Below, piece after piece: positions 3,488-23,429 of a stretch of DNA of 34,405 bases. The DNA is taken from positions 1 to 34,405 of the IMG/VR virus record IMGVR_UViG_3300020057_000017. One strand, written 5' to 3'. The stretch comes from a virus (Duplodnaviria > Caudoviricetes). The position numbers were made by a program, and so were the translations under genes. Below the pieces are notes generated by a model. It worked only from the letters and a program-made list of their open reading frames with translations. It had not been told where the DNA came from and did not search any database. Each line of letters begins with the position of its first letter. Within the stretch, counting starts at the first letter, position 1.

Positions 3488-3859
3488 TTAAGCTAGTTCA
3501 ATATGTGGCCAGTCTTTAAAACTAAAATCTCTACCTAGTTTTATTTTGATTTCGTATTTTTCAGCGAATGACTCAAATGCAAGACACATTATTTCAAACT
3601 CTTTTAGATCAACCCATGAAATAGTTTTTGGGTTTCTGTCTGGATCTGGTACAAAGTCCCCGGCCGTACTTGGACTTTTATTATGTTTTGAATTAGGATA
3701 TTTTAATTTTGATTTTTTTTGTGAAAATGCCTCATTCTGATCTTTCTCGTTTCGTTCACCACAAATGCATTGTATTGGGTAAATCTCATCAACTGCCATG
3801 GCCAGCTTAATCAAGTCAGGGTGACATGTTTTGAGCTTATTAAAAGATGTAGAATTAAT
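3488..3859 (-). CDS. Endolysin, peptidase M15 family (L-Ala-D-Glu peptidase-like); probable ATT start at 3859
   Basis: GER..DQ, SKH(N)x5GD, DWPHIEL motifs; in-frame STSFNKLKTCHPD lies upstream of the TTG at 3814. Confidence 0.88.
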   Translation of the reverse strand: MNSTSFNKLKTCHPDLIKLAMAVDEIYPIQCICGERNEKDQNEAFSQKKSKLKYPNSKHNKSPSTAGDFVPDPDRNPKTISWVDLKEFEIMCLAFESFAEKYEIKIKLGRDFSFKDWPHIELA

Positions 3860-13652: not shown

Positions 13653-15844
13653 TAGTTTCTATTCCCATTTTTATTAAAGTCAATTTGTGCATTTATTAAA
13701 TTTATATTCCCGCCAATAATGTTCTGATAGAATCCTATGAGGATATTTTGCCCACTTCTGTTAATGTCTGCCCTTGCCACTATCATGGTTCTATCATCTC
13801 CGAAGGTGCCTTCATCTAAAACGGAAACATCTAAAATAAAACCCTCTAAACTATTTCCAAAATCAAAAGACAGTTCCGATAAGTTGTTTAACGAGTAATT
13901 AATCCAAGTTTTGACGGTTAAAGTGTTTCCGGTCGAAACTCTTTTTAGTAAGAGCTCTCTAAAATTATAGCTTGCATCCAGGTCATCACCATCTAGCCAT
14001 GTCAGCATGGCGAAGGCATCAATTGACTGATCTACCCCTAAATTATTATCATCTGCTCTTTCTTCTTTGACTGAATGTGTATAAATTGCTCCTGCATTGT
14101 CGGCCATAAATACGACCTCAGCACCGTTTGAATCCTCACCAATACAAGCGCAAGTAGAGGCAGATTGAAAACTATATGGCTTGAAGCCGCCTATTTGAAA
14201 CTCATATACGTAAGTTTTAGTCATGTCGGAGTTTGAGCCCTCGGCGATCCATGTCATGTACTGGTCAAGTGTTGAGTAGTAAACAGAAAAAGAGTTTTGC
14301 ATCTGGAGCTTATTTGCCTCATATACGTATCCTGGTTGTCTAAAAATATCGTCGATATCTCCTAGGCCCAATGTTGCTGAGTTGTTTTTATCATCGGCGG
14401 CGATGCGGCCACTAGAAATCATCCGCCAGCCCTGGTCACTTAAAAAATAAACATCTCCGTTTTTAACTTGAATTGTTTCGTGTGAAACGCAGCCAATTTC
14501 TCGCGAGATAGGAATAAATTTTCCTTCGCCTGCTATTTCTGAATAAATAAATGTCGATCTTTTTTTAAAAACGACTAAGTATGGCGTTAAGATACTGTCA
14601 TTAAAAAGGCCCGTTGCAATGCCTGTGACTTCTCCGTTGAATGGTGCGGATAAAACCAGTTGACCGTCTGCGCCCCCATCGTTAAAAGCACTAGGTAAAT
14701 CTTCTTCTGAAAAAATAACATCATTTGGATAAGTCGCGTTCCCTGCATAAACTAGCTTCCGGTTAAACTCGGCAAGAAACTTTCCCCCGCCTGGTAGTGG
14801 AGCACCATTTGCTATCGGTGCGGTATTGGTCGATGTCCCCACGCTTGAAATTGTATAACTTGAAGTCCCTAGCGTTAATTCGGTTATGTAAACAGGATCA
14901 TCAACCGAAGCCGTATCTTTTAAATAAATTCTGATTTTATCTATTGTAGCATTGTCCGCAGTTGTAGGAATTGATGAAACTAAAATGGATTGCCGTCCGT
15001 TTTGTAGAAATGCGGCAGCGGCAGTTACTTGCGCCGATGATGATATGCCTGTAATTGACACTGTTACTAAAGCCGATGCGGCCACACTTAAACCTACTGC
15101 GCCCTTAATTTGCAAGGCGGTTGATACTCCAGATGCTATTTGAACAGAGATATTATTTCCGCTGACAGTGACAACCTCCAGACCGGCCGTGGCCCCTGTT
15201 GTATATGCAATATTTATCAAGTTTGACGTATCGTTTGAGGTTTTTGCGTAATAAGTAAGATCTTGAATCGCACGAATTGAGCCGTTATTAACTGAGGCAA
15301 TTACTGATTTATTTGATTCAAAGCCTGTAGTGGACGAGTAATAAGTTAAATAAACATCATAACTCTTTGCCGAAAGTGTTCCTGTTGTGGCCGATGCTGT
15401 GAGGACGGGTGACACTGGCACCGCCTGTCCTAGTTGAGTGAAAGTAGTTCCATTAAATTGAAATAGCCCATCACTTTCAATCGATATAATTTGTCTACTT
15501 GACTGGCCTCTAGACCACGTAAGCCCACGGTGTTTAGTTGTGGTTGAAAGTCCTGTCTTGATTGCGGTCGCTGCCCCGGTTGATGAGACTGAAAAAATAG
15601 TTCCACCTACTTTGGCCAAAACATAACGAGTGCCATTGGCGTGGCGAAAGAATGTCATGCTTAAAATTGAGCCGCCCAAGAGAGTTGTATTATAAAGTGA
15701 TCTTCCGAATCTTGTTTCCAGACGGCCATTGTTTGAGAAAACATTTAAAGCATCTCGAAGCCGTGGGCGAGATTCATTAACCTTATACGAAACAGGAAGG
15801 TCAAAGTTTCTTAGATTGTTAGAGGCGCGGCTATTTAATGGCAT
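13652..15844 (-). CDS. Tail nozzle / stabilisation protein
   Basis: Size, position after adaptor, IGCVSHETIQ...VYFLS propeller motif. Confidence 0.8.
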   Translation of the reverse strand: MPLNSRASNNLRNFDLPVSYKVNESRPRLRDALNVFSNNGRLETRFGRSLYNTTLLGGSILSMTFFRHANGTRYVLAKVGGTIFSVSSTGAATAIKTGLSTTTKHRGLTWSRGQSSRQIISIESDGLFQFNGTTFTQLGQAVPVSPVLTASATTGTLSAKSYDVYLTYYSSTTGFESNKSVIASVNNGSIRAIQDLTYYAKTSNDTSNLINIAYTTGATAGLEVVTVSGNNISVQIASGVSTALQIKGAVGLSVAASALVTVSITGISSSAQVTAAAAFLQNGRQSILVSSIPTTADNATIDKIRIYLKDTASVDDPVYITELTLGTSSYTISSVGTSTNTAPIANGAPLPGGGKFLAEFNRKLVYAGNATYPNDVIFSEEDLPSAFNDGGADGQLVLSAPFNGEVTGIATGLFNDSILTPYLVVFKKRSTFIYSEIAGEGKFIPISREIGCVSHETIQVKNGDVYFLSDQGWRMISSGRIAADDKNNSATLGLGDIDDIFRQPGYVYEANKLQMQNSFSVYYSTLDQYMTWIAEGSNSDMTKTYVYEFQIGGFKPYSFQSASTCACIGEDSNGAEVVFMADNAGAIYTHSVKEERADDNNLGVDQSIDAFAMLTWLDGDDLDASYNFRELLLKRVSTGNTLTVKTWINYSLNNLSELSFDFGNSLEGFILDVSVLDEGTFGDDRTMIVARADINRSGQNILIGFYQNIIGGNINLINAQIDFNKNGNRN

Positions 15845-16830
15845 TACCCTACCTCATTACCTTCGACGTTTCCATAAACATCCCTGATCGTGTAGTCAAC
15901 ATTTGCGGGCTTTCCGTAGCGATTAAAAGCATCGATTAGCATTAATTCATAAGTTTGTTTTTTTGTTTCTTGCCCGGACCTGTCACGGTATTCAAAGCCC
16001 ATTGCAATAACCCCGGCCTTAAGGACTTGCTTTAAATAAATTGGTAAATCAGGTTGCGAATCATCTGCATTAAAAAGCCTAAACGGATAACGGTAATAAT
16101 CAAAGCTCAGAACTATGGCGCTAGAAGGCTTGGGATAAAAAACGATTGAATTTGGATCAATCATAGAAAAATATTCCGGCGTCCCGGTCGATAAGTTTCC
16201 GCCTGTAATATATCTTAATTGCTCTAAATCTTTTGATCTTAAATAAGTTGAGGATAATTCTATAAATGGTGATCCTGAAAGTTTTCTAATGGCCGCATAA
16301 TCAGGCGGCTCAATTGTTAGCGCTGTATTAGTGCTAATCGTGGCAGTTGTGGCCACGTTGTTTGCAATAGTCGAATGGAAAAAATATTTACCAGTATCTT
16401 TTTTTAAATAAATATTTCTTTGTGTGACAAGTGGATTTGATGAAACTGTAATGCTAGAAAGATTTATCGTTAAATTGGCCCCAGATGGTGAGGCAATGGA
16501 CGATGTTGGGCCAGCAATAGACTCTACACCGTTTGCCTGTAGATAGGTTATTAATACATAATATGCAGAGCCGCTAGTTAGTGAACCGCCTGACGCCAAG
16601 GCAACCACTGGAGCACTTGGAGTACTAACCTCAAGTGAGTATTCTTCTGAGCCTGTAGTAATATTCTTTTGACCTTTAACTTTATGAAAGGCCCAATCAA
16701 AGCGCGTTCCAATATCGAATTGAATATCATTTAGCCAGCCCGTGACTCGAGCTTGAAAAGCGGTTGAAGTGTCTCCCAGTAAAGCACTAAGCTCCGTAAC
16801 TAGCGAAGATCCATTCCAAGATCTAGACAT
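15844..16830 (-). CDS. Head-tail adaptor protein with inserted beta-sandwich
   Basis: WLND...DWAF N-terminus; GTPEYF...FYPKP...YYR C-terminus. Confidence 0.8.
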   Translation of the reverse strand: MSRSWNGSSLVTELSALLGDTSTAFQARVTGWLNDIQFDIGTRFDWAFHKVKGQKNITTGSEEYSLEVSTPSAPVVALASGGSLTSGSAYYVLITYLQANGVESIAGPTSSIASPSGANLTINLSSITVSSNPLVTQRNIYLKKDTGKYFFHSTIANNVATTATISTNTALTIEPPDYAAIRKLSGSPFIELSSTYLRSKDLEQLRYITGGNLSTGTPEYFSMIDPNSIVFYPKPSSAIVLSFDYYRYPFRLFNADDSQPDLPIYLKQVLKAGVIAMGFEYRDRSGQETKKQTYELMLIDAFNRYGKPANVDYTIRDVYGNVEGNEVG

Positions 16831-18126: not shown

Positions 18127-19035
18127 TTAGTTTTTGCCCATTACTTGTTTTGCAAAGTACCTTGTGGCCTGATCCCAAGACATTTTAGAAACATCAACGG
18201 ATGGCCTGACATTAGATTTTGCGACTGTTCCAGCGGTTACGACCTTGGGTATTGCCTGGACTTTCTTTTCTACTGCGGTAACCTTGGCCTTAGATGCCAT
18301 TGCTTTCGCAAGCTGTGCACCGTACTTAGACCAAACTGCCTCTTCGTAAGAAAGCTTGGGATTATCGGCCCATACGTCTTCGACTGCTGCGTAATCGATT
18401 TTAATTCCTGCGGCCTCGGCATCTTTTCCGATTGTGTTTTTAACTTGCACCACTTCAGATTCAAGCTTAGTGCGGACAACCTCGTCAGAAGCTTTGGCCT
18501 TAAACTGGCCCAACTCTTTACGAAGCTCTGCGACTTCCCTTGAAACTTTATCCACCACGGGGTTAGTAAACTGCTTGTTAAATTCACTGAATTCAGATTG
18601 GAGAATGCTGAAAAGCTCAGGATCTTTCTCGGCAAAGTGAGAGAAGAATTCATCCATTTGGTCATGGACTCTTACTTTCTCGCCGTACTGAGCTTGGAAT
18701 TCCTTTTCCTTGACTGACATTTCTTCCTGAAATGCTTTTTGCTTTAGATCGAGCTCTTGCTCTTTCTTTGCAATTTCCTGAAATTCTTTGAGGGTTAGTT
18801 TTTGCTCCTCAATGGGTGCAATCTCCTCTTCAGGTTTAGAGCTTTCAATAGGTGCCTCTTTCTCGTTTAACTCGTCAACGTCACTTTCCTCGCTTCCTTG
18901 CTCTTCCGGTGCTACAGTTTCCCCGTGCTCTTCAGATAATTCCTCCGGTAGTTCTACCGGATCTTCACCTAAAGAGCTTTGATCAATCCCTAGATCGGTT
19001 AGTGCGCTTTCAAAGTACGATTCAGACTCACTCAT
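18127..19035 (-). CDS. Capsid scaffolding protein
   Basis: Acidic disordered N-terminus, coiled coil, between portal and capsid. Confidence 0.85.
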   Translation of the reverse strand: MSESESYFESALTDLGIDQSSLGEDPVELPEELSEEHGETVAPEEQGSEESDVDELNEKEAPIESSKPEEEIAPIEEQKLTLKEFQEIAKKEQELDLKQKAFQEEMSVKEKEFQAQYGEKVRVHDQMDEFFSHFAEKDPELFSILQSEFSEFNKQFTNPVVDKVSREVAELRKELGQFKAKASDEVVRTKLESEVVQVKNTIGKDAEAAGIKIDYAAVEDVWADNPKLSYEEAVWSKYGAQLAKAMASKAKVTAVEKKVQAIPKVVTAGTVAKSNVRPSVDVSKMSWDQATRYFAKQVMGKN

Positions 19036-19050
19036 TCAAAAAACTCCGTT

Positions 19051-21060
19051 TTATTGGCCCATCTCTGGTGCCTGTGTAACCATCGCATCCTGAGGAGCTA
19101 CCTCTTGACTGGTATCCGCTGGTATAATTCCTAATTGTGCTTTCATTTGTTCATTCTCTGCGGCCAGTTGCTGAAGCATGGCGGCCTGTTGATCATTCGC
19201 TTCCATCTCTTCCAAGATTTTCTTTTTATAAGGAATGCCTGGTGCAATAGTGATAAAAGTTTTCGGCGTGATCATGCCTTTTTCAACAAATGCCTCTAGT
19301 ACTCCAAAAATTGCTTCCTTGTCTGTCCCTGCTAGTGTTCCTGGTACAACCCGGATTGAATAATCTAGGTCTTTAATTTCTTCAGGGTTAAAAATAACTT
19401 CTTTGATTTCGCCAGTAGTTGAGTCGGTAATTCTCATCATCTTTTCTGCTGGCCAGTATTTAACAATTCTTGAAGCGGTTAACTTGCCAAGTCTCGGCAT
19501 AGAATAAAGTGCTATCTGAGTGGCCTTAAGCCTAACTCTACCATTGGTAGTTTGTTGTAGTGCCGCAATAGCTTTTGCGGCCGTGACTCCACCCGGTTGC
19601 TGCCCTTGGGAAGCAGCGTTCACACCAGTGATATCATTCATCGCCATCTGGTCGTTTTGCTTTCTCATGCTTAACTGTGGAGATGTTTGGCCAGGTTCAT
19701 TTCTTTCAAAACGAGAACCAGGATTAGTCACATAAACTTTTCCGCGCTTATTTGAGATTTCTGAAGGCTTGACTCCGCAATCTGAGCCAATGATATAACC
19801 CCCGTTAGAGGTTAAATGGAGTGATTCATACTCGGCATTGTCCATTTCATTATAAGATTTTTGACTTGAGAGAATGTTTTTAATTTCGCCAAATGCCCAA
19901 ATAGAATCTTCTTCCTTGTAAGCATAATATGGAACAAGAGGAACCATTCCATCATCAACCGGAGCAGATCCATCATATAAAATCGTTCCGCCTGTTTTCA
20001 TCACAAGGCGAAGAGATGAGTTGAATTTAGGTTTTTGATTGTCAGGGTTGATTTCCTGGTATTGAGCGTGGATGCGGTTATGGTCATCAATCAACATCAA
20101 GACCATGCCGATTTCTGGATCGTTCGCTTTGAGATTTTCTATATCTTGTTCGGTAACATCTTGAGGCAAAAGACCCAATGCCTCTGCGACAATAGAAGCT
20201 TTTTGAGCACCGTGAGCGGCCATATGATTCTCGTGATGTTCATAGCGGCCTATGTCTGGATTTATGCCCTGGAAGAATTCGTTAGTTTCTTTTTCAATTT
20301 CGGCGATGGTGTCCTCTTCGGGAATATCTGTCATTGTGTAATCTCTAAGCCATGCCTCTTCGAGAATTGCCATGTCATTTATCTTGTATCTGTCCATATC
20401 GCCTGAGTACGTGCGACCTAATGAATCACGATCCTCACGGCCCTTGTTGTCCTGGCCGCTTGATTCTTGCTCAGAATTATTAGGTGTTATCTTGTCTTTA
20501 AAGTTTGGAAATCTTCTTTTAAGTTCCGCTGTTCTAACTGGAAACTTGATCCCGACAAATGCTGCCTCATCAATATCCGAGGCCGCTGGATCAAGGAAAA
20601 CATGTCTCCACGGAATATTTTTAATGAGAACGGTGCCCTCACCATTTTCGCCGTTAGGATCAAAATCAACGTACTGAAATCCGTTTCCAGTCTTAAGCAT
20701 CGAACGAATAGTCATGACTTGCTTAAGCTGCAAGTTTTGTTGTTCATATACGTAATGGATCGCGTTTTCTAATACTTTTGCTGCCTCATCTTTTTCAGGA
20801 CGAGAAGCAAGCACATCTGTGCCAGGCATAGAATCTGTAAGAATAGACATTTCTTGTTCTATCAAAGGGAAAATTAGATTCTTGAATGTCTTATTAGAAT
20901 CTTTCCAGTGCTTATTGGCATAGAAGTCTTCACACTCTTCCCATTCAGGCTCAAAGCTCTTTCGGTAATTACTGGCTTCTTCGAAATGCTTATTAATAAG
21001 CTTAACGGTCTCAGCATCCGATTTTAGGTTATCAACTTCTTTTGAATTATTATCTTCCAA
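19051..21060 (-). CDS. Portal protein
   Basis: 669 aa; W....DFY..KHW, G.GF..V, VFLDP.A, NDITGVN.ASQG, TAA.AI; TTG start. Confidence 0.92.
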   Translation of the reverse strand: MEDNNSKEVDNLKSDAETVKLINKHFEEASNYRKSFEPEWEECEDFYANKHWKDSNKTFKNLIFPLIEQEMSILTDSMPGTDVLASRPEKDEAAKVLENAIHYVYEQQNLQLKQVMTIRSMLKTGNGFQYVDFDPNGENGEGTVLIKNIPWRHVFLDPAASDIDEAAFVGIKFPVRTAELKRRFPNFKDKITPNNSEQESSGQDNKGREDRDSLGRTYSGDMDRYKINDMAILEEAWLRDYTMTDIPEEDTIAEIEKETNEFFQGINPDIGRYEHHENHMAAHGAQKASIVAEALGLLPQDVTEQDIENLKANDPEIGMVLMLIDDHNRIHAQYQEINPDNQKPKFNSSLRLVMKTGGTILYDGSAPVDDGMVPLVPYYAYKEEDSIWAFGEIKNILSSQKSYNEMDNAEYESLHLTSNGGYIIGSDCGVKPSEISNKRGKVYVTNPGSRFERNEPGQTSPQLSMRKQNDQMAMNDITGVNAASQGQQPGGVTAAKAIAALQQTTNGRVRLKATQIALYSMPRLGKLTASRIVKYWPAEKMMRITDSTTGEIKEVIFNPEEIKDLDYSIRVVPGTLAGTDKEAIFGVLEAFVEKGMITPKTFITIAPGIPYKKKILEEMEANDQQAAMLQQLAAENEQMKAQLGIIPADTSQEVAPQDAMVTQAPEMGQ

Positions 21061-21194: not shown

Positions 21195-21620
21195 ATGAAA
21201 ACATTCCGATACGTATTTTCCGACGGCCATGTACTTGAACTCGAGCCAACCACCTCGGGTAAGGAGATACTTGCTCGATACTGCCTAGATAATGACGTGA
21301 GATTGATTTACAACGGTTTCCAAGAATTTATGGGAGTTGGGCAAAGGTCAACCATGGGAATAATTGGCGGATCTAATACCCGCGGTGATGGTTTTAAGAC
21401 TGGTTTTAATCCTGCCTTGGGCATGGAGATTAAAAGCCCTCAGCATTACAAAGATGTTTTAAAAGAGAAAGGTATGTATGAAGTCGGCAATGAAAAGCAA
21501 GTAAGTCTAGGCCCAAAAAAGAAAAGCATGATTGATGATGAAGTTATAAAAGAAGTAGTGCAAATGGGTGGGGAGATTTCTGGTAATGAGGCGTCAATGC
21601 TCAAGGGTGAAATCGCTTAA
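21195..21620 (+). CDS. Hypothetical protein, antisense to the morphogenesis operon
   Basis: 141-aa ORF with no competing ORF; FNPALGMEIKS..HY...LKEKG..EVGNE resembles small portal-linked phage proteins (recalled, not searched). Confidence 0.8.
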   Translation: MKTFRYVFSDGHVLELEPTTSGKEILARYCLDNDVRLIYNGFQEFMGVGQRSTMGIIGGSNTRGDGFKTGFNPALGMEIKSPQHYKDVLKEKGMYEVGNEKQVSLGPKKKSMIDDEVIKEVVQMGGEISGNEASMLKGEIA

Positions 21621-21769
21621 TCAAAATAACTTTCGACCTCGCCTCTTAAGATTCTCATTTCGTCAAGAGATGGATCATAAACCGAATGACTTTCACAGAT
21701 TGCTAGTGGGACATCGATATGATTTATTGGTTTAAAGTATAAATATAAATAACGAAAGAATTTAATCAA
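21617..21769 (-). CDS. 50-aa protein ending in ESYFD (TerL C-terminal mimic)
   Basis: TTG overlapping terL end, GAGGAG RBS; MIKFFRYLYLYFKPINHIDVPLAICESHSVYDPSLDEMRILRGEVESYFD. Confidence 0.7.
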   Translation of the reverse strand: MIKFFRYLYLYFKPINHIDVPLAICESHSVYDPSLDEMRILRGEVESYFD

Positions 21770-23429
21770 AGTAGCTCTCTCCTCGTTCATCGCTATTAAA
21801 ATTAAGCATCTCTTCGATGGTTTTAAAATCTCGATTCTTTTTAGTGTTCACGGTGTCAAACGATCCAGACCGACCTTCAGTGACTTGCTTTACCGCTTGA
21901 AGTGCTACACAGTACGAAACAACCCGATCTTTCCCATTGAGTTCAACCGATCCATCAGGATTAAGTGTCAGTGTTGCCATTTCTTGCAAAAGATCAATGT
22001 CATTAATCTTGGTCATTCCATCTCGATATGCGGCAACAAACTCATCAAGCATCAAAATCTTAGTTTTAACATTAGTCCGCCACCCGGCCTTGTCGGTTAA
22101 CTCTCCAGTGCGCTCATCTAATATTTCTCTCATGTACAGGGACGGGTAAAAAGCTTTCATGATATGGGTCAAGGTAGTCAAACCGTGATTATTAACTTCC
22201 GGTGCCAACATGGCATCATTGTATAATTTTCCGGCCTTCAACATCTCTGCCCCAAAAGTATCAGGGTGAAGATGCCCATGAAAACTCACTACTTGCTCCA
22301 GCTCTTTGTTTAAGATTGTCATGGTCGAATAGTCACCCGTCTCAAGTCCTTCGGCAACATCGGCCCCGATAGCGTATCTTTTCTTTTCGTCAGGTGTTTT
22401 ATAAATCTTATAAAATCCCTTAGGACTAGGCACAGTGACACCATTAATAATATCAACCCGATCAAACGTAATGTTACGCGCCATATGAATATCTGAATTT
22501 ATTCGCTCTTGGTTAAATACTGGCCGACCTGATGAAATAAACGCTTCAGAAATAGTTAGCGGATACTCTTGCTTGAACTGATCTTCAGGGGCCATCAATG
22601 TTTTCCCCATCTCGTTTTCGATCTTATATCTACGCCAAGCCAGTTTTCTGAGTGTTAATTCTGGATGAAGCTTAACCATGTCATGTTCATGCTCTGACAT
22701 AATAAAGCATTCCGGAGGGTTGATTTCGTACTCAGTATTTTCAGTCCATTTAAAAAAGATCAGCTTAAATACTGACTTACCGCTCTGGGCGTCCATGCAT
22801 CTTTCATAGAATTCCTGGCCATTTCCGGCCACGCCGTTAGCTGTTGACTCAATAATTATAGAGGTGCCTGGTTCATAGGGTACAGCCTGGAATAGCCCTC
22901 CGATGACAGTGGATGCGTTTTTCCAAAATGCCAACTCTGAGCAATGAAGATGCTGAATACTTCCACCTCGCCCTGCCGTGAGGTTATTAGCAGTCTCTAC
23001 TTCAAGTCCAGACATTAGACCTGGATTCTCTTCTCGGTCATTCTCATCTGGGTTTTCAAATTTAAGTTCTTTTTTATTCGAGAACCGCTTCATAGGCTTC
23101 ATTTTCTTGGGTAAGAAATCATAGAAGCGTTTACACATATTAAAAAGCTTAGTGGTTGAGTCTTCATCGTGGGCAATCACCACTGAGTTTCTATAGGGAT
23201 TTGTAACGGTCTGATGAAAGTTATAAGCACCGCCCCAAGTTGACCCACCAATTTGGCGACACTTAAGTACAATTATGCGAACAGGTTTCCCGTCCCTTTC
23301 TTCTGACTGCGCTATCCTGGTCAGTTCTTTTTGGTATGAATTAAACTTTAATGGCGAGAAAGTGGACTTCTTAGTAATAACCCTTAGAAGCTTTTCGGCG
23401 TAGAAATTTAGGTCAAAAATCTCGATCAT
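21762..23429 (-). CDS. terL: Terminase large subunit
   Basis: Walker A KCRQIGGST, Walker B LHCSE, ESTANG coupling motif, IGADVAEG...DYS nuclease. Confidence 0.96.
   Translation of the reverse strand: MIEIFDLNFYAEKLLRVITKKSTFSPLKFNSYQKELTRIAQSEERDGKPVRIIVLKCRQIGGSTWGGAYNFHQTVTNPYRNSVVIAHDEDSTTKLFNMCKRFYDFLPKKMKPMKRFSNKKELKFENPDENDREENPGLMSGLEVETANNLTAGRGGSIQHLHCSELAFWKNASTVIGGLFQAVPYEPGTSIIIESTANGVAGNGQEFYERCMDAQSGKSVFKLIFFKWTENTEYEINPPECFIMSEHEHDMVKLHPELTLRKLAWRRYKIENEMGKTLMAPEDQFKQEYPLTISEAFISSGRPVFNQERINSDIHMARNITFDRVDIINGVTVPSPKGFYKIYKTPDEKKRYAIGADVAEGLETGDYSTMTILNKELEQVVSFHGHLHPDTFGAEMLKAGKLYNDAMLAPEVNNHGLTTLTHIMKAFYPSLYMREILDERTGELTDKAGWRTNVKTKILMLDEFVAAYRDGMTKINDIDLLQEMATLTLNPDGSVELNGKDRVVSYCVALQAVKQVTEGRSGSFDTVNTKKNRDFKTIEEMLNFNSDERGESYFD

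What the first reader, a model, noticed from the sequence alone, without database searches (positions are those of the whole stretch)
21617..21790. Unannotated 50-aa ORF after terL copies the TerL C-terminal motif ESYFD; the scaffold N-terminus carries ESYFE
Seen: TerL ends DERG-ESYFD-stop. The coupled mini-ORF (21769-21617, TTG, GAGGAG RBS) ends RGEV-ESYFD-stop. The codons differ at three positions, all synonymous (GAG AGC TAC vs GAA AGT TAT), which points to selection on the peptide. The scaffold begins MSES-ESYFE (19023-19009) with a TCG serine, suggesting a separate origin. Known: TerL C-termini dock on the portal/prohead in lambda and T3, and scaffolds recruit portal. Inference: one portal pocket is used in turn by scaffold, mini-protein and terminase, the mini-protein acting as a packaging timer, plug or decoy (possibly against satellites or host sensors of terminase/portal). 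I know of no description of this.
Basis: partly seen in the sequence, partly recalled or inferred. Interest (0 to 1): 0.85.

Follow-up and report, generated by a model that had tools for sequence, protein, structure and literature searches.

The report
Membrane-anchored terminase-tail mimic in phages
A group of uncultured phages keeps, just after the gene for the DNA-packaging motor, a small conserved protein with a predicted membrane anchor whose last residues often match the motor's own tail, so it likely holds the empty head at the cell membrane through the motor's docking site until the motor replaces it (binding untested).

Summary
The three motifs are there, but only two are conserved. 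The mini-ORF is a real, unnamed gene family: 88 short database hits, no meaningful Pfam or PHROGs match, and present in 22 of 23 related loci with readable downstream DNA, between terL and the portal. It has an N-terminal membrane anchor (predicted transmembrane or amphipathic helix), a variable linker and a conserved 21-residue C-terminal motif under purifying selection. The motif's last residues co-vary with the TerL C-terminus across lineages (ESYFD/ESYFD, ESQFS/EDQFS, KGWY/EGWY, DRIF/KIFD; permutation p=0.0007 over 11 hand-made clusters, 0.004 without the ESYFD clade), although about half the loci show no match. The ESYFD tail sits on two different TerL bodies, so it tracks the head module. 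The scaffold's ESYFE occurs in 1 of 27 homologs and is probably chance; a pocket shared with scaffold is unsupported. Best model (0.45): a membrane tether and placeholder that binds the portal-vertex site later used by the TerL tail, a phage-encoded counterpart of T4's membrane-bound prohead assembly.

The parts
21617..21769 (-). Mini gene, 50 aa from TTG (57 aa from ATG 21790): membrane anchor, linker, TerL-tail-like motif
21617..21679 (-). Conserved C-terminal motif YDPSxDxxxxxxGEVESYFD and stop; purifying selection
21734..21769 (-). N-terminal predicted amphipathic helix (hydrophobic moment 0.66); replaced by a predicted transmembrane helix in many homologs
21779..21784 (-). GAGGAG Shine-Dalgarno-like sequence 9 nt before the TTG, inside the last TerL codons
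   Evidence: sequence
21762..23429 (-). Large terminase, 555 aa
   Evidence: PHROGs terminase hits; fold match to T4 gp17, E 1e-21
21762..21887 (-). TerL flexible tail (about residues 515-555): linker, short helix 538-547, ESYFD
   Evidence: AlphaFold2 pLDDT under 50 at 520-534 and 548-555
21195..21620 (+). Conserved opposite-strand gene of 141 aa, converging on the mini gene with overlapping stops; three distant homologs carry an FmdB-type zinc ribbon just under the family cut-off
19051..21060 (-). P22/SU10-like portal, 669 aa
19681..19809 (-). Inferred portal clip (about residues 418-460, between the two stem helices), with NKRGK at 437-441; candidate binding site
   Evidence: clip assignment is inference from the portal fold
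19009..19023 (-). Scaffold ESYFE; present but not conserved, not counted as part of the system

Best explanation
The mini gene encodes a conserved small protein with a predicted inner-membrane anchor and a C-terminal motif that co-varies with the large terminase's tail, and it likely binds the same outside face of the portal vertex as that tail, which would hold the portal and growing prohead at the membrane until terminase displaces it. Shown: the gene family, its position, selection on the motif, the co-variation, and a hydrophobic or amphipathic N-terminus. Inferred: cytoplasmic exposure of the motif; a shared binding site; that the site is the portal clip (the capsid protein around the vertex is the alternative); tethering, and hand-over from tether to terminase to adaptor.
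For: Family: 35 hits, all ending ESYF[DE] with at most one extra residue; 81 hits among 50%-identity representatives; 88 short proteins in all, 75 ending ESYF[DE]. Position: 22 of 23 distinct TerL loci with readable downstream DNA hold it before the opposite-strand block. Selection: over 20 codons in 4 loci pS 0.53-1.12 against pN 0.15-0.25; serine is AGT, AGC or TCT. Anchor: of 88, 24 predicted transmembrane, 49 amphipathic, 15 neither; the middle varies freely in length and sequence. Co-variation of the last 5 residues: p=0.0007 over 11 clusters, 0.004 without the ESYFD clade; it holds where other genes separate terL and the mini gene (L030, L113, L118, L131). The TerL tail is disordered in the model and ESYFD-type tails sit on two TerL bodies (22 at 29-37% and 12 at 51-77% N-half identity). 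The three ESYFD-clade portals with a clip sequence read NKRGK and pair with acidic TerL tails; the other 15 group segments do not. Literature: TerL C-termini are needed for portal binding in T3, lambda, SPP1 and P22 (PMC13595956 and PMC5290284, passages); T4 proheads start on a membrane-attached portal and the clip becomes accessible to the motor only after release (PMC9958956, passages); in a thermophilic phage an adaptor's terminal Phe and carboxylate dock at the clip (PMC12407722, passages).
Against: Co-variation is partial: the cognate mini ranks first for 8 of 21 TerL ends and near the bottom for L025, L123, L124 and L103; TerLs ending in basic residues (L025, L108, L130) still have a mini gene with an aromatic ending, and 53 of 120 TerL homologs have no acid-aromatic end. 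Clusters and scoring were set after seeing the data, n=11. Likeness is limited to 3-6 residues; profile comparison of the two families finds nothing (4.6%). The amphipathic call is soft: median moment 0.72 against a shuffled 95th percentile of 0.74, and the positive-inside count (22 of 24) is inflated because the helix lies at the very N-terminus. The clip-charge match is one evolutionary event and L020 breaks it (acidic tail, acidic clip). L105 has a membrane ORF without the motif, in error-prone sequence. PMC12407722 speculates that TerL tails bind capsid hexons rather than portal. The host is unknown and no expression data exist.
Confidence: 0.45

Rival explanations
1. The motif binds terminase itself (a site on TerL or TerS that the TerL tail also occupies in the oligomer), so the protein tethers or holds back the motor at the membrane rather than the head.
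For: The gene is coupled to terL in many loci and persists where TerL lacks a matching tail (L025, L130, L039), as expected if it supplies the motif in trans. In 12 of 88 members the N-terminal part also has a GA[YF][DE] word like one in the TerL linker.
Against: The ESYFD mini gene and tail persist across two very different TerL bodies (L019 and L101 against the window) while portals stay 56-58% identical. The TerL model shows no packing of the tail on its own body.
Confidence: 0.15
2. The two ends are alike through ancestry or repeated copying (duplication or gene conversion between neighbours); the mini protein has its own membrane function with another partner and the TerL likeness carries no shared function.
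For: The genes are neighbours; about half the loci show no match; L001 has a third copy of the DNA word TATTTTGATTA in a closed frame; TAT TTT GAT is unchanged in 4 of 4 mini genes.
Against: Matched pairs differ at synonymous sites and different lineages match in different words (QFS, GWY, IF, FD), which needs repeated, very short conversions. The DNA word is absent from 150 of 161 loci.
Confidence: 0.15
3. Both ends are read by a host protein (a defence sensor, protease or adaptor), and the membrane-bound copy is a decoy or sink.
For: Acid-aromatic C-termini are common docking signals (recalled). A solved Avs3-terminase complex shows that hosts sense terminases (PDB 8dgc).
Against: Near-universal presence at one position (22 of 23 loci) is unlike patchy counter-defence genes (general knowledge). 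A five-residue disordered end is a poor decoy for sensors that read folded domains (recalled). The motif changes with phage lineage.
Confidence: 0.12
4. The protein excludes competitors: it captures proheads or terminases of related co-infecting phages or satellites at the membrane.
For: A membrane-bound mimic of a docking tail could trap portals; loci where own TerL and mini gene do not match (L025, L123, L124) would fit targeting of others.
Against: Where the ends match exactly (window, L001, L101, L118) it would trap its own heads, and own-lineage matching is what exceeds chance.
Confidence: 0.06
5. The TerL ending is a by-product of the overlapped ribosome-binding site and TTG start, or of a programmed frameshift that gives TerL a longer tail.
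For: GAGGAG and TTG lie inside the last TerL codons in the window and L001, which may favour the EE and FD codons.
Against: The overlap is +1 in the window and L001 but -1 in L019, and 230-1580 nt with other genes intervene in L030, L057, L108, L113, L114, L118, L120, L131 and L132. It cannot explain the mini gene's own end, which meets only a converging stop.
Confidence: 0.04

Closest known systems
T4 membrane-bound prohead initiation (portal gp20, chaperone gp40, host YidC, DnaK, Tig)
   Same: Portal held at the inner membrane during head assembly; clip opened to the motor only after release (PMC9958956, passages). This is what the mini protein is proposed to work like.
   Different: T4 uses a viral chaperone and host membrane proteins, and release follows protease maturation. 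Here a phage-encoded anchored peptide with a terminase-tail-like motif is proposed; no PHROGs or Pfam family match; P22/SU10-type portal.
TerL C-terminal prohead-binding tails of T3 gp19, lambda gpA, SPP1 gp2, P22 gp2
   Same: Charged, hydrophobic, flexible C-terminal tail needed for portal binding (PMC13595956, PMC5290284, passages). [quoted passage not shown]
   Different: The P22 tail is basic and proline-rich; none of these phages is described, in what I read, as encoding a second, separate protein with the same tail.
Head-tail adaptor tails that dock at the portal clip (Oshimavirus adaptor; P22 gp4)
   Same: A C-terminal tail with terminal Phe and carboxylate binds clefts of the clip, after terminase leaves (PMC12407722, passages).
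   Different: Adaptors are folded virion proteins acting after packaging; this window has its own adaptor (15844-16830, SU10_adaptor) ending in another sequence. The mini protein is short, predicted membrane-bound and would act before packaging.
Holins, spanins and superinfection-exclusion membrane proteins
   Same: Small phage proteins with one hydrophobic segment.
   Different: The endolysin lies 18 kb away (3488-3814); the conserved part is a predicted cytoplasmic motif and the transmembrane helix is replaceable by an amphipathic one.

Membership tests
T4 gp40-type portal assembly chaperone system | Sequence family match | tested here: not met
   35 members scanned: no PHROGs family under E 0.02, three Pfam hits all on one atypical member; no direct comparison with gp40 was run
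T4 gp40-type portal assembly chaperone system | Portal assembles attached to the inner membrane and needs the factor | not testable with these tools
   Needs a cultured phage and host; no cultured relative
TerL prohead-binding tail (for the TerL end) | Flexible charged and hydrophobic C-terminal extension beyond the nuclease domain | tested here: met
   pLDDT under 50 at 520-534 and 548-555; conserved ending in 35 of 120 homologs
TerL prohead-binding tail (for the TerL end) | Deletion abolishes portal or prohead binding | not testable with these tools
   Bench test
Terminase-tail mimic (proposed) | Ending co-varies with the cognate TerL tail across lineages | tested here: met
   p=0.0007, 11 clusters; 0.004 without the ESYFD clade; 8 of 21 cognate pairs rank first
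Terminase-tail mimic (proposed) | Binds the same site as the TerL tail | not tested
Inner-membrane anchored protein, C-terminus in cytoplasm | N-terminal transmembrane or amphipathic helix with basic residues after it | tested here: inconclusive
   Clear hydrophobic helix in 24 of 88 hits and in 15 of 21 locus members (Kyte-Doolittle window above 2.0); amphipathic signal in the window's clade is only moderate against shuffles
Truncated TerL duplicate | Detectable homology to TerL beyond the last residues | tested here: not met
   hhalign probability 4.6%
Three-way shared motif including scaffold | Scaffold motif conserved and co-varying | tested here: not met
   1 of 27 homologs; 4 of 27 share only [YFI]F[EQ]SA as the start of a helix
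Holin/spanin lysis genes | Position in the lysis cassette; family match | tested here: not met
   Endolysin at 3488-3814; no family match

The most novel reading that the evidence does not exclude
A whole group of podovirus-like phages uses a dedicated membrane-anchored mimic of the terminase tail as an assembly dock: it captures the portal by its motor-docking face, fixes where and which way round heads are built, blocks premature motor or adaptor binding, and is displaced by TerL as the switch that starts packaging. Tether, terminase tail and portal clip co-evolve as a lineage-specific lock and key.
Probability: 0.4. Interest if true: 0.87.

Novelty: new variant of a known kind. Interest (0 to 1): 0.72.

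Why it matters
How terminase tails dock on proheads, and what keeps that site free or blocked until a head is ready, are open points: a 2025 preprint states that no structure of the complex exists for its phage and speculates about the partner (PMC12407722, passages). A natural 21-residue ligand that comes in lineage-matched versions makes the docking site directly testable by peptide binding, swaps and cryo-EM. If the tether model holds, it gives a mechanism for membrane-sited head assembly outside T4 and a natural peptide inhibitor of packaging. Even if it fails, this is a new, near-universal packaging-module gene family in an uncultured phage group.

Tried and rejected
Complex prediction (four portal stem-clip-stem fragments plus the motif) was not available, so nothing was folded. 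Scaffold as third motif user: rejected. Invertible segment or assembly error for the opposite-strand gene: no flanking inverted repeat and the same orientation in all related loci that reach it. DNA-level repeat or cassette site: synonymous variation and absence from 150 of 161 loci; five matches with one mismatch in the window exceed shuffles, but the pattern was taken from one of them. Conserved frameshift: overlap frame and distance vary. Truncated TerL copy: no profile match. Host: no relevant genome hit (one weak match at E 3e-4, disregarded), no cultured phage (best portal match 28% over 55%), no names in clusters. Expression: no RNA holder listed; the two DNA runs show no variant over the region. 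ESM Atlas: only unnamed clusters at 0.76. Promoter and terminator scan: nothing above chance. The broad TerL scan returned mostly distant phages in which portal follows terL directly. Literature searches that found no description: 0 papers; 1 listing each; only that was opened; the library lacks most subscription papers, and supplements were not read.

Full report
Setting. The window is a complete 34,405-base virus record with direct terminal repeats. On the minus strand run a putative small terminase (by position only), terL, the mini gene, a P22/SU10-like portal, scaffold, major capsid protein and an SU10-type adaptor. The TerL model matches T4 gp17 and the portal model matches podophage portals. 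No cultured relative or host was found. The two runs that hold the DNA are microbial mat metagenomes.

Observation. Among 181 window ORFs only TerL and the mini gene end this way.

The mini-ORF is a gene. It follows terL in L001 and L019 with the same ending. A profile of three members found 35 proteins among 55 candidates, including the window's own and the two other queries; all 35 end ESYF[DE] with at most one more residue, which partly reflects the profile. A profile of 35 found 81 representatives at E up to 0.001; of the 60 new ones 53 are short family members and 7 are long, probably chance hits that I dropped. The 88 short proteins include a few truncated calls of the same genes. Ten positions are invariant in the 35-row alignment. 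In four loci with DNA the motif shows pS 0.53-1.12 against pN 0.15-0.25, and its serine is AGT, AGC or TCT. Pfam and PHROGs give no meaningful match.

Anatomy. The conserved parts are the two ends. The N-terminus is either a basic amphipathic helix (consensus MxFLKxLWRKLF) or a plain hydrophobic helix; the middle varies in length and sequence; the C-terminus is YDPSxDxxKIMxGEVESYF[DE]. Of 88, 24 scored as transmembrane, 49 as amphipathic and 15 as neither, several of these being truncated calls. The amphipathic threshold is permissive (median 0.72, shuffled median 0.50, 95th percentile 0.74). Basic residues follow the helix in 22 of 24 transmembrane forms, a count helped by the helix's N-terminal position. 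Interchange of two anchor types with a free linker is best read as selection for holding the motif on the cytoplasmic face of the inner membrane (inference).

Range. Using the group's NGKDRV word I gathered 23 distinct TerL tails. One contig ends at terL. In the other 22 a small gene with a related [YFW]xPSxD motif lies between terL and a conserved opposite-strand gene block (21 by pattern, L039 by eye), at distances from overlap to 1.6 kb. L105, dropped by the filter because its terL is frameshifted, has a membrane ORF without the motif. That gives 22 of 23. Most distant phages have portal directly after terL.

Co-variation. Last residues of TerL and mini protein: ESYFD/ESYFD (window, L001, L101), ESQFS/EDQFS (L030), EKGWY/REGWY (L118), SKGWF/KNSWY (L113), KDRIF/PKIFD (L131, L132), NDLFD/TDFYD (L114). 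Poor or no match: L020, L025, L039, L057, L103, L120, L123, L124, L130; partial: L019, L102, L108. With 21 pairs (L107 dropped as a near copy of L103) grouped by eye into 11 clusters, cognate similarity over five residues was 9.5 against 4.6 permuted, p=0.0007; without the ESYFD clade p=0.004; four- and six-residue windows gave p=0.001-0.009. A tree of the nuclease domain supports four of the five multi-member clusters (one weakly) and splits the ESYFD cluster in two. The cognate mini ranks first in 8 of 21; within each locus it is the best-matching ORF end in 9 of 21. Twelve further pairs matched only by equal contig length, two of them the window and L001, show ESYFD on TerL in 11; this pairing is an assumption and was not used in the test. 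The scoring was chosen after seeing the data.

What the TerL tail is. Residues 515-555 are a low-confidence linker, a short helix and a disordered end. 35 of 120 homologs end ESYF[DE], 32 have another acid- or small-residue-plus-aromatic end, 53 have none. Of 34 ESYFD-type TerLs, 22 are 29-37% and 12 are 51-77% identical to the window's N-terminal half: the tail stays while the body differs, as expected of a head-specificity element. TerL C-termini are needed for portal binding in T3, lambda, SPP1 and P22 (PMC13595956, PMC5290284; passages). In the inferred clip, the three ESYFD-clade portals read NKRGK and go with tails of net charge -3 to -4, whereas the other 15 segments of the group read NDEG, NEPG, NAPG and the like, mostly with neutral or basic tails; L020 is an exception. 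This is a single event and weak.

Scaffold. ESYFE occurs in 1 of 27 homologs; four share [YFI]F[EQ]SA as the start of a helix leading to the conserved LGID word. Where TerL, mini protein and scaffold can be read together (L019, L101) the scaffold lacks it. I reject the three-way pocket.

Mechanism. Two proteins whose ends change together most simply share a partner. Known partners of TerL tails are at the portal vertex. In T4 the portal is attached to the inner membrane during head assembly and its clip becomes free for the motor after release (PMC9958956, passages); in an Oshimavirus an adaptor's terminal Phe and carboxylate dock at the clip, and the authors speculate that TerL tails bind capsid hexons (PMC12407722, passages). 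I therefore propose tether first, terminase next, adaptor last, on the outer portal vertex (0.45). Loci where TerL has no matching end may use a different docking tail while the tether keeps the aromatic motif, or may show that the likeness is secondary.

Novelty. Searches returned no paper; some searches returned one listing each, of which I read passages of the first and only the listing of the other two. Coverage is limited to open-licence papers and bioRxiv. Two earlier notes of this scan describe other mimic-like genes between terL and portal in unrelated phages; none covers this family. Verdict: real, new gene family; likely a new device for a known kind of process; interest 0.72.

Noticed in passing
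window 21195-21620 (+), and the matching gene in the related loci: A conserved gene lies on the opposite strand between terL and portal, so it and the portal are transcribed divergently from a 135-nt gap. Three distant homologs begin with an FmdB-type zinc ribbon (E about 1e-6, just under the cut-off); the window's lacks the cysteines.
   Followed up: partly
window portal residues about 245-345 (about 20026-20328, minus): A well-predicted helical insertion in the portal with four invariant histidines (H276, H283, H327, H331) in 12 of 12 aligned portals; possibly a metal site.
   Followed up: no
window about 21915-21941 (minus), TerL residues 497-505: The group's terminases read NGKDRVV where distant relatives in the same hit list read YDDRV or FDDRV, a change at a nuclease-domain acidic motif that marks the group.
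   Followed up: partly
mini family N-terminal part; TerL linker: 12 of 88 mini proteins carry G[AS][YF][DE] after the anchor, like a word in the linker of 28 of 38 ESYFD-type TerLs; many distant TerL tails also hold KAYxP, like the start of the mini motif. A possible second shared element.
   Followed up: partly
L001 1975-2164: A further small membrane gene ends on a third copy of the DNA word TATTTTGATTA, in a frame that does not encode the peptide, exactly at the converging stop.
   Followed up: partly
L025, L030, L057, L103, L113, L118, L120, L123, L130, L131 between terL and the opposite-strand block: The interval often holds further small membrane-protein genes; L108 has an HNH-like gene and L039, L131 a methyltransferase-like gene there (judged by eye).
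   Followed up: no
protein P0009: A 916-aa TerL homolog with PF14890 and PF14528 domains (intein and homing endonuclease, names recalled) that still ends ESYFD.
   Followed up: no
L151 and L153 (one contig): One 40-kb viral contig holds two different but close terL regions near its two ends; possibly a chimeric assembly.
   Followed up: no
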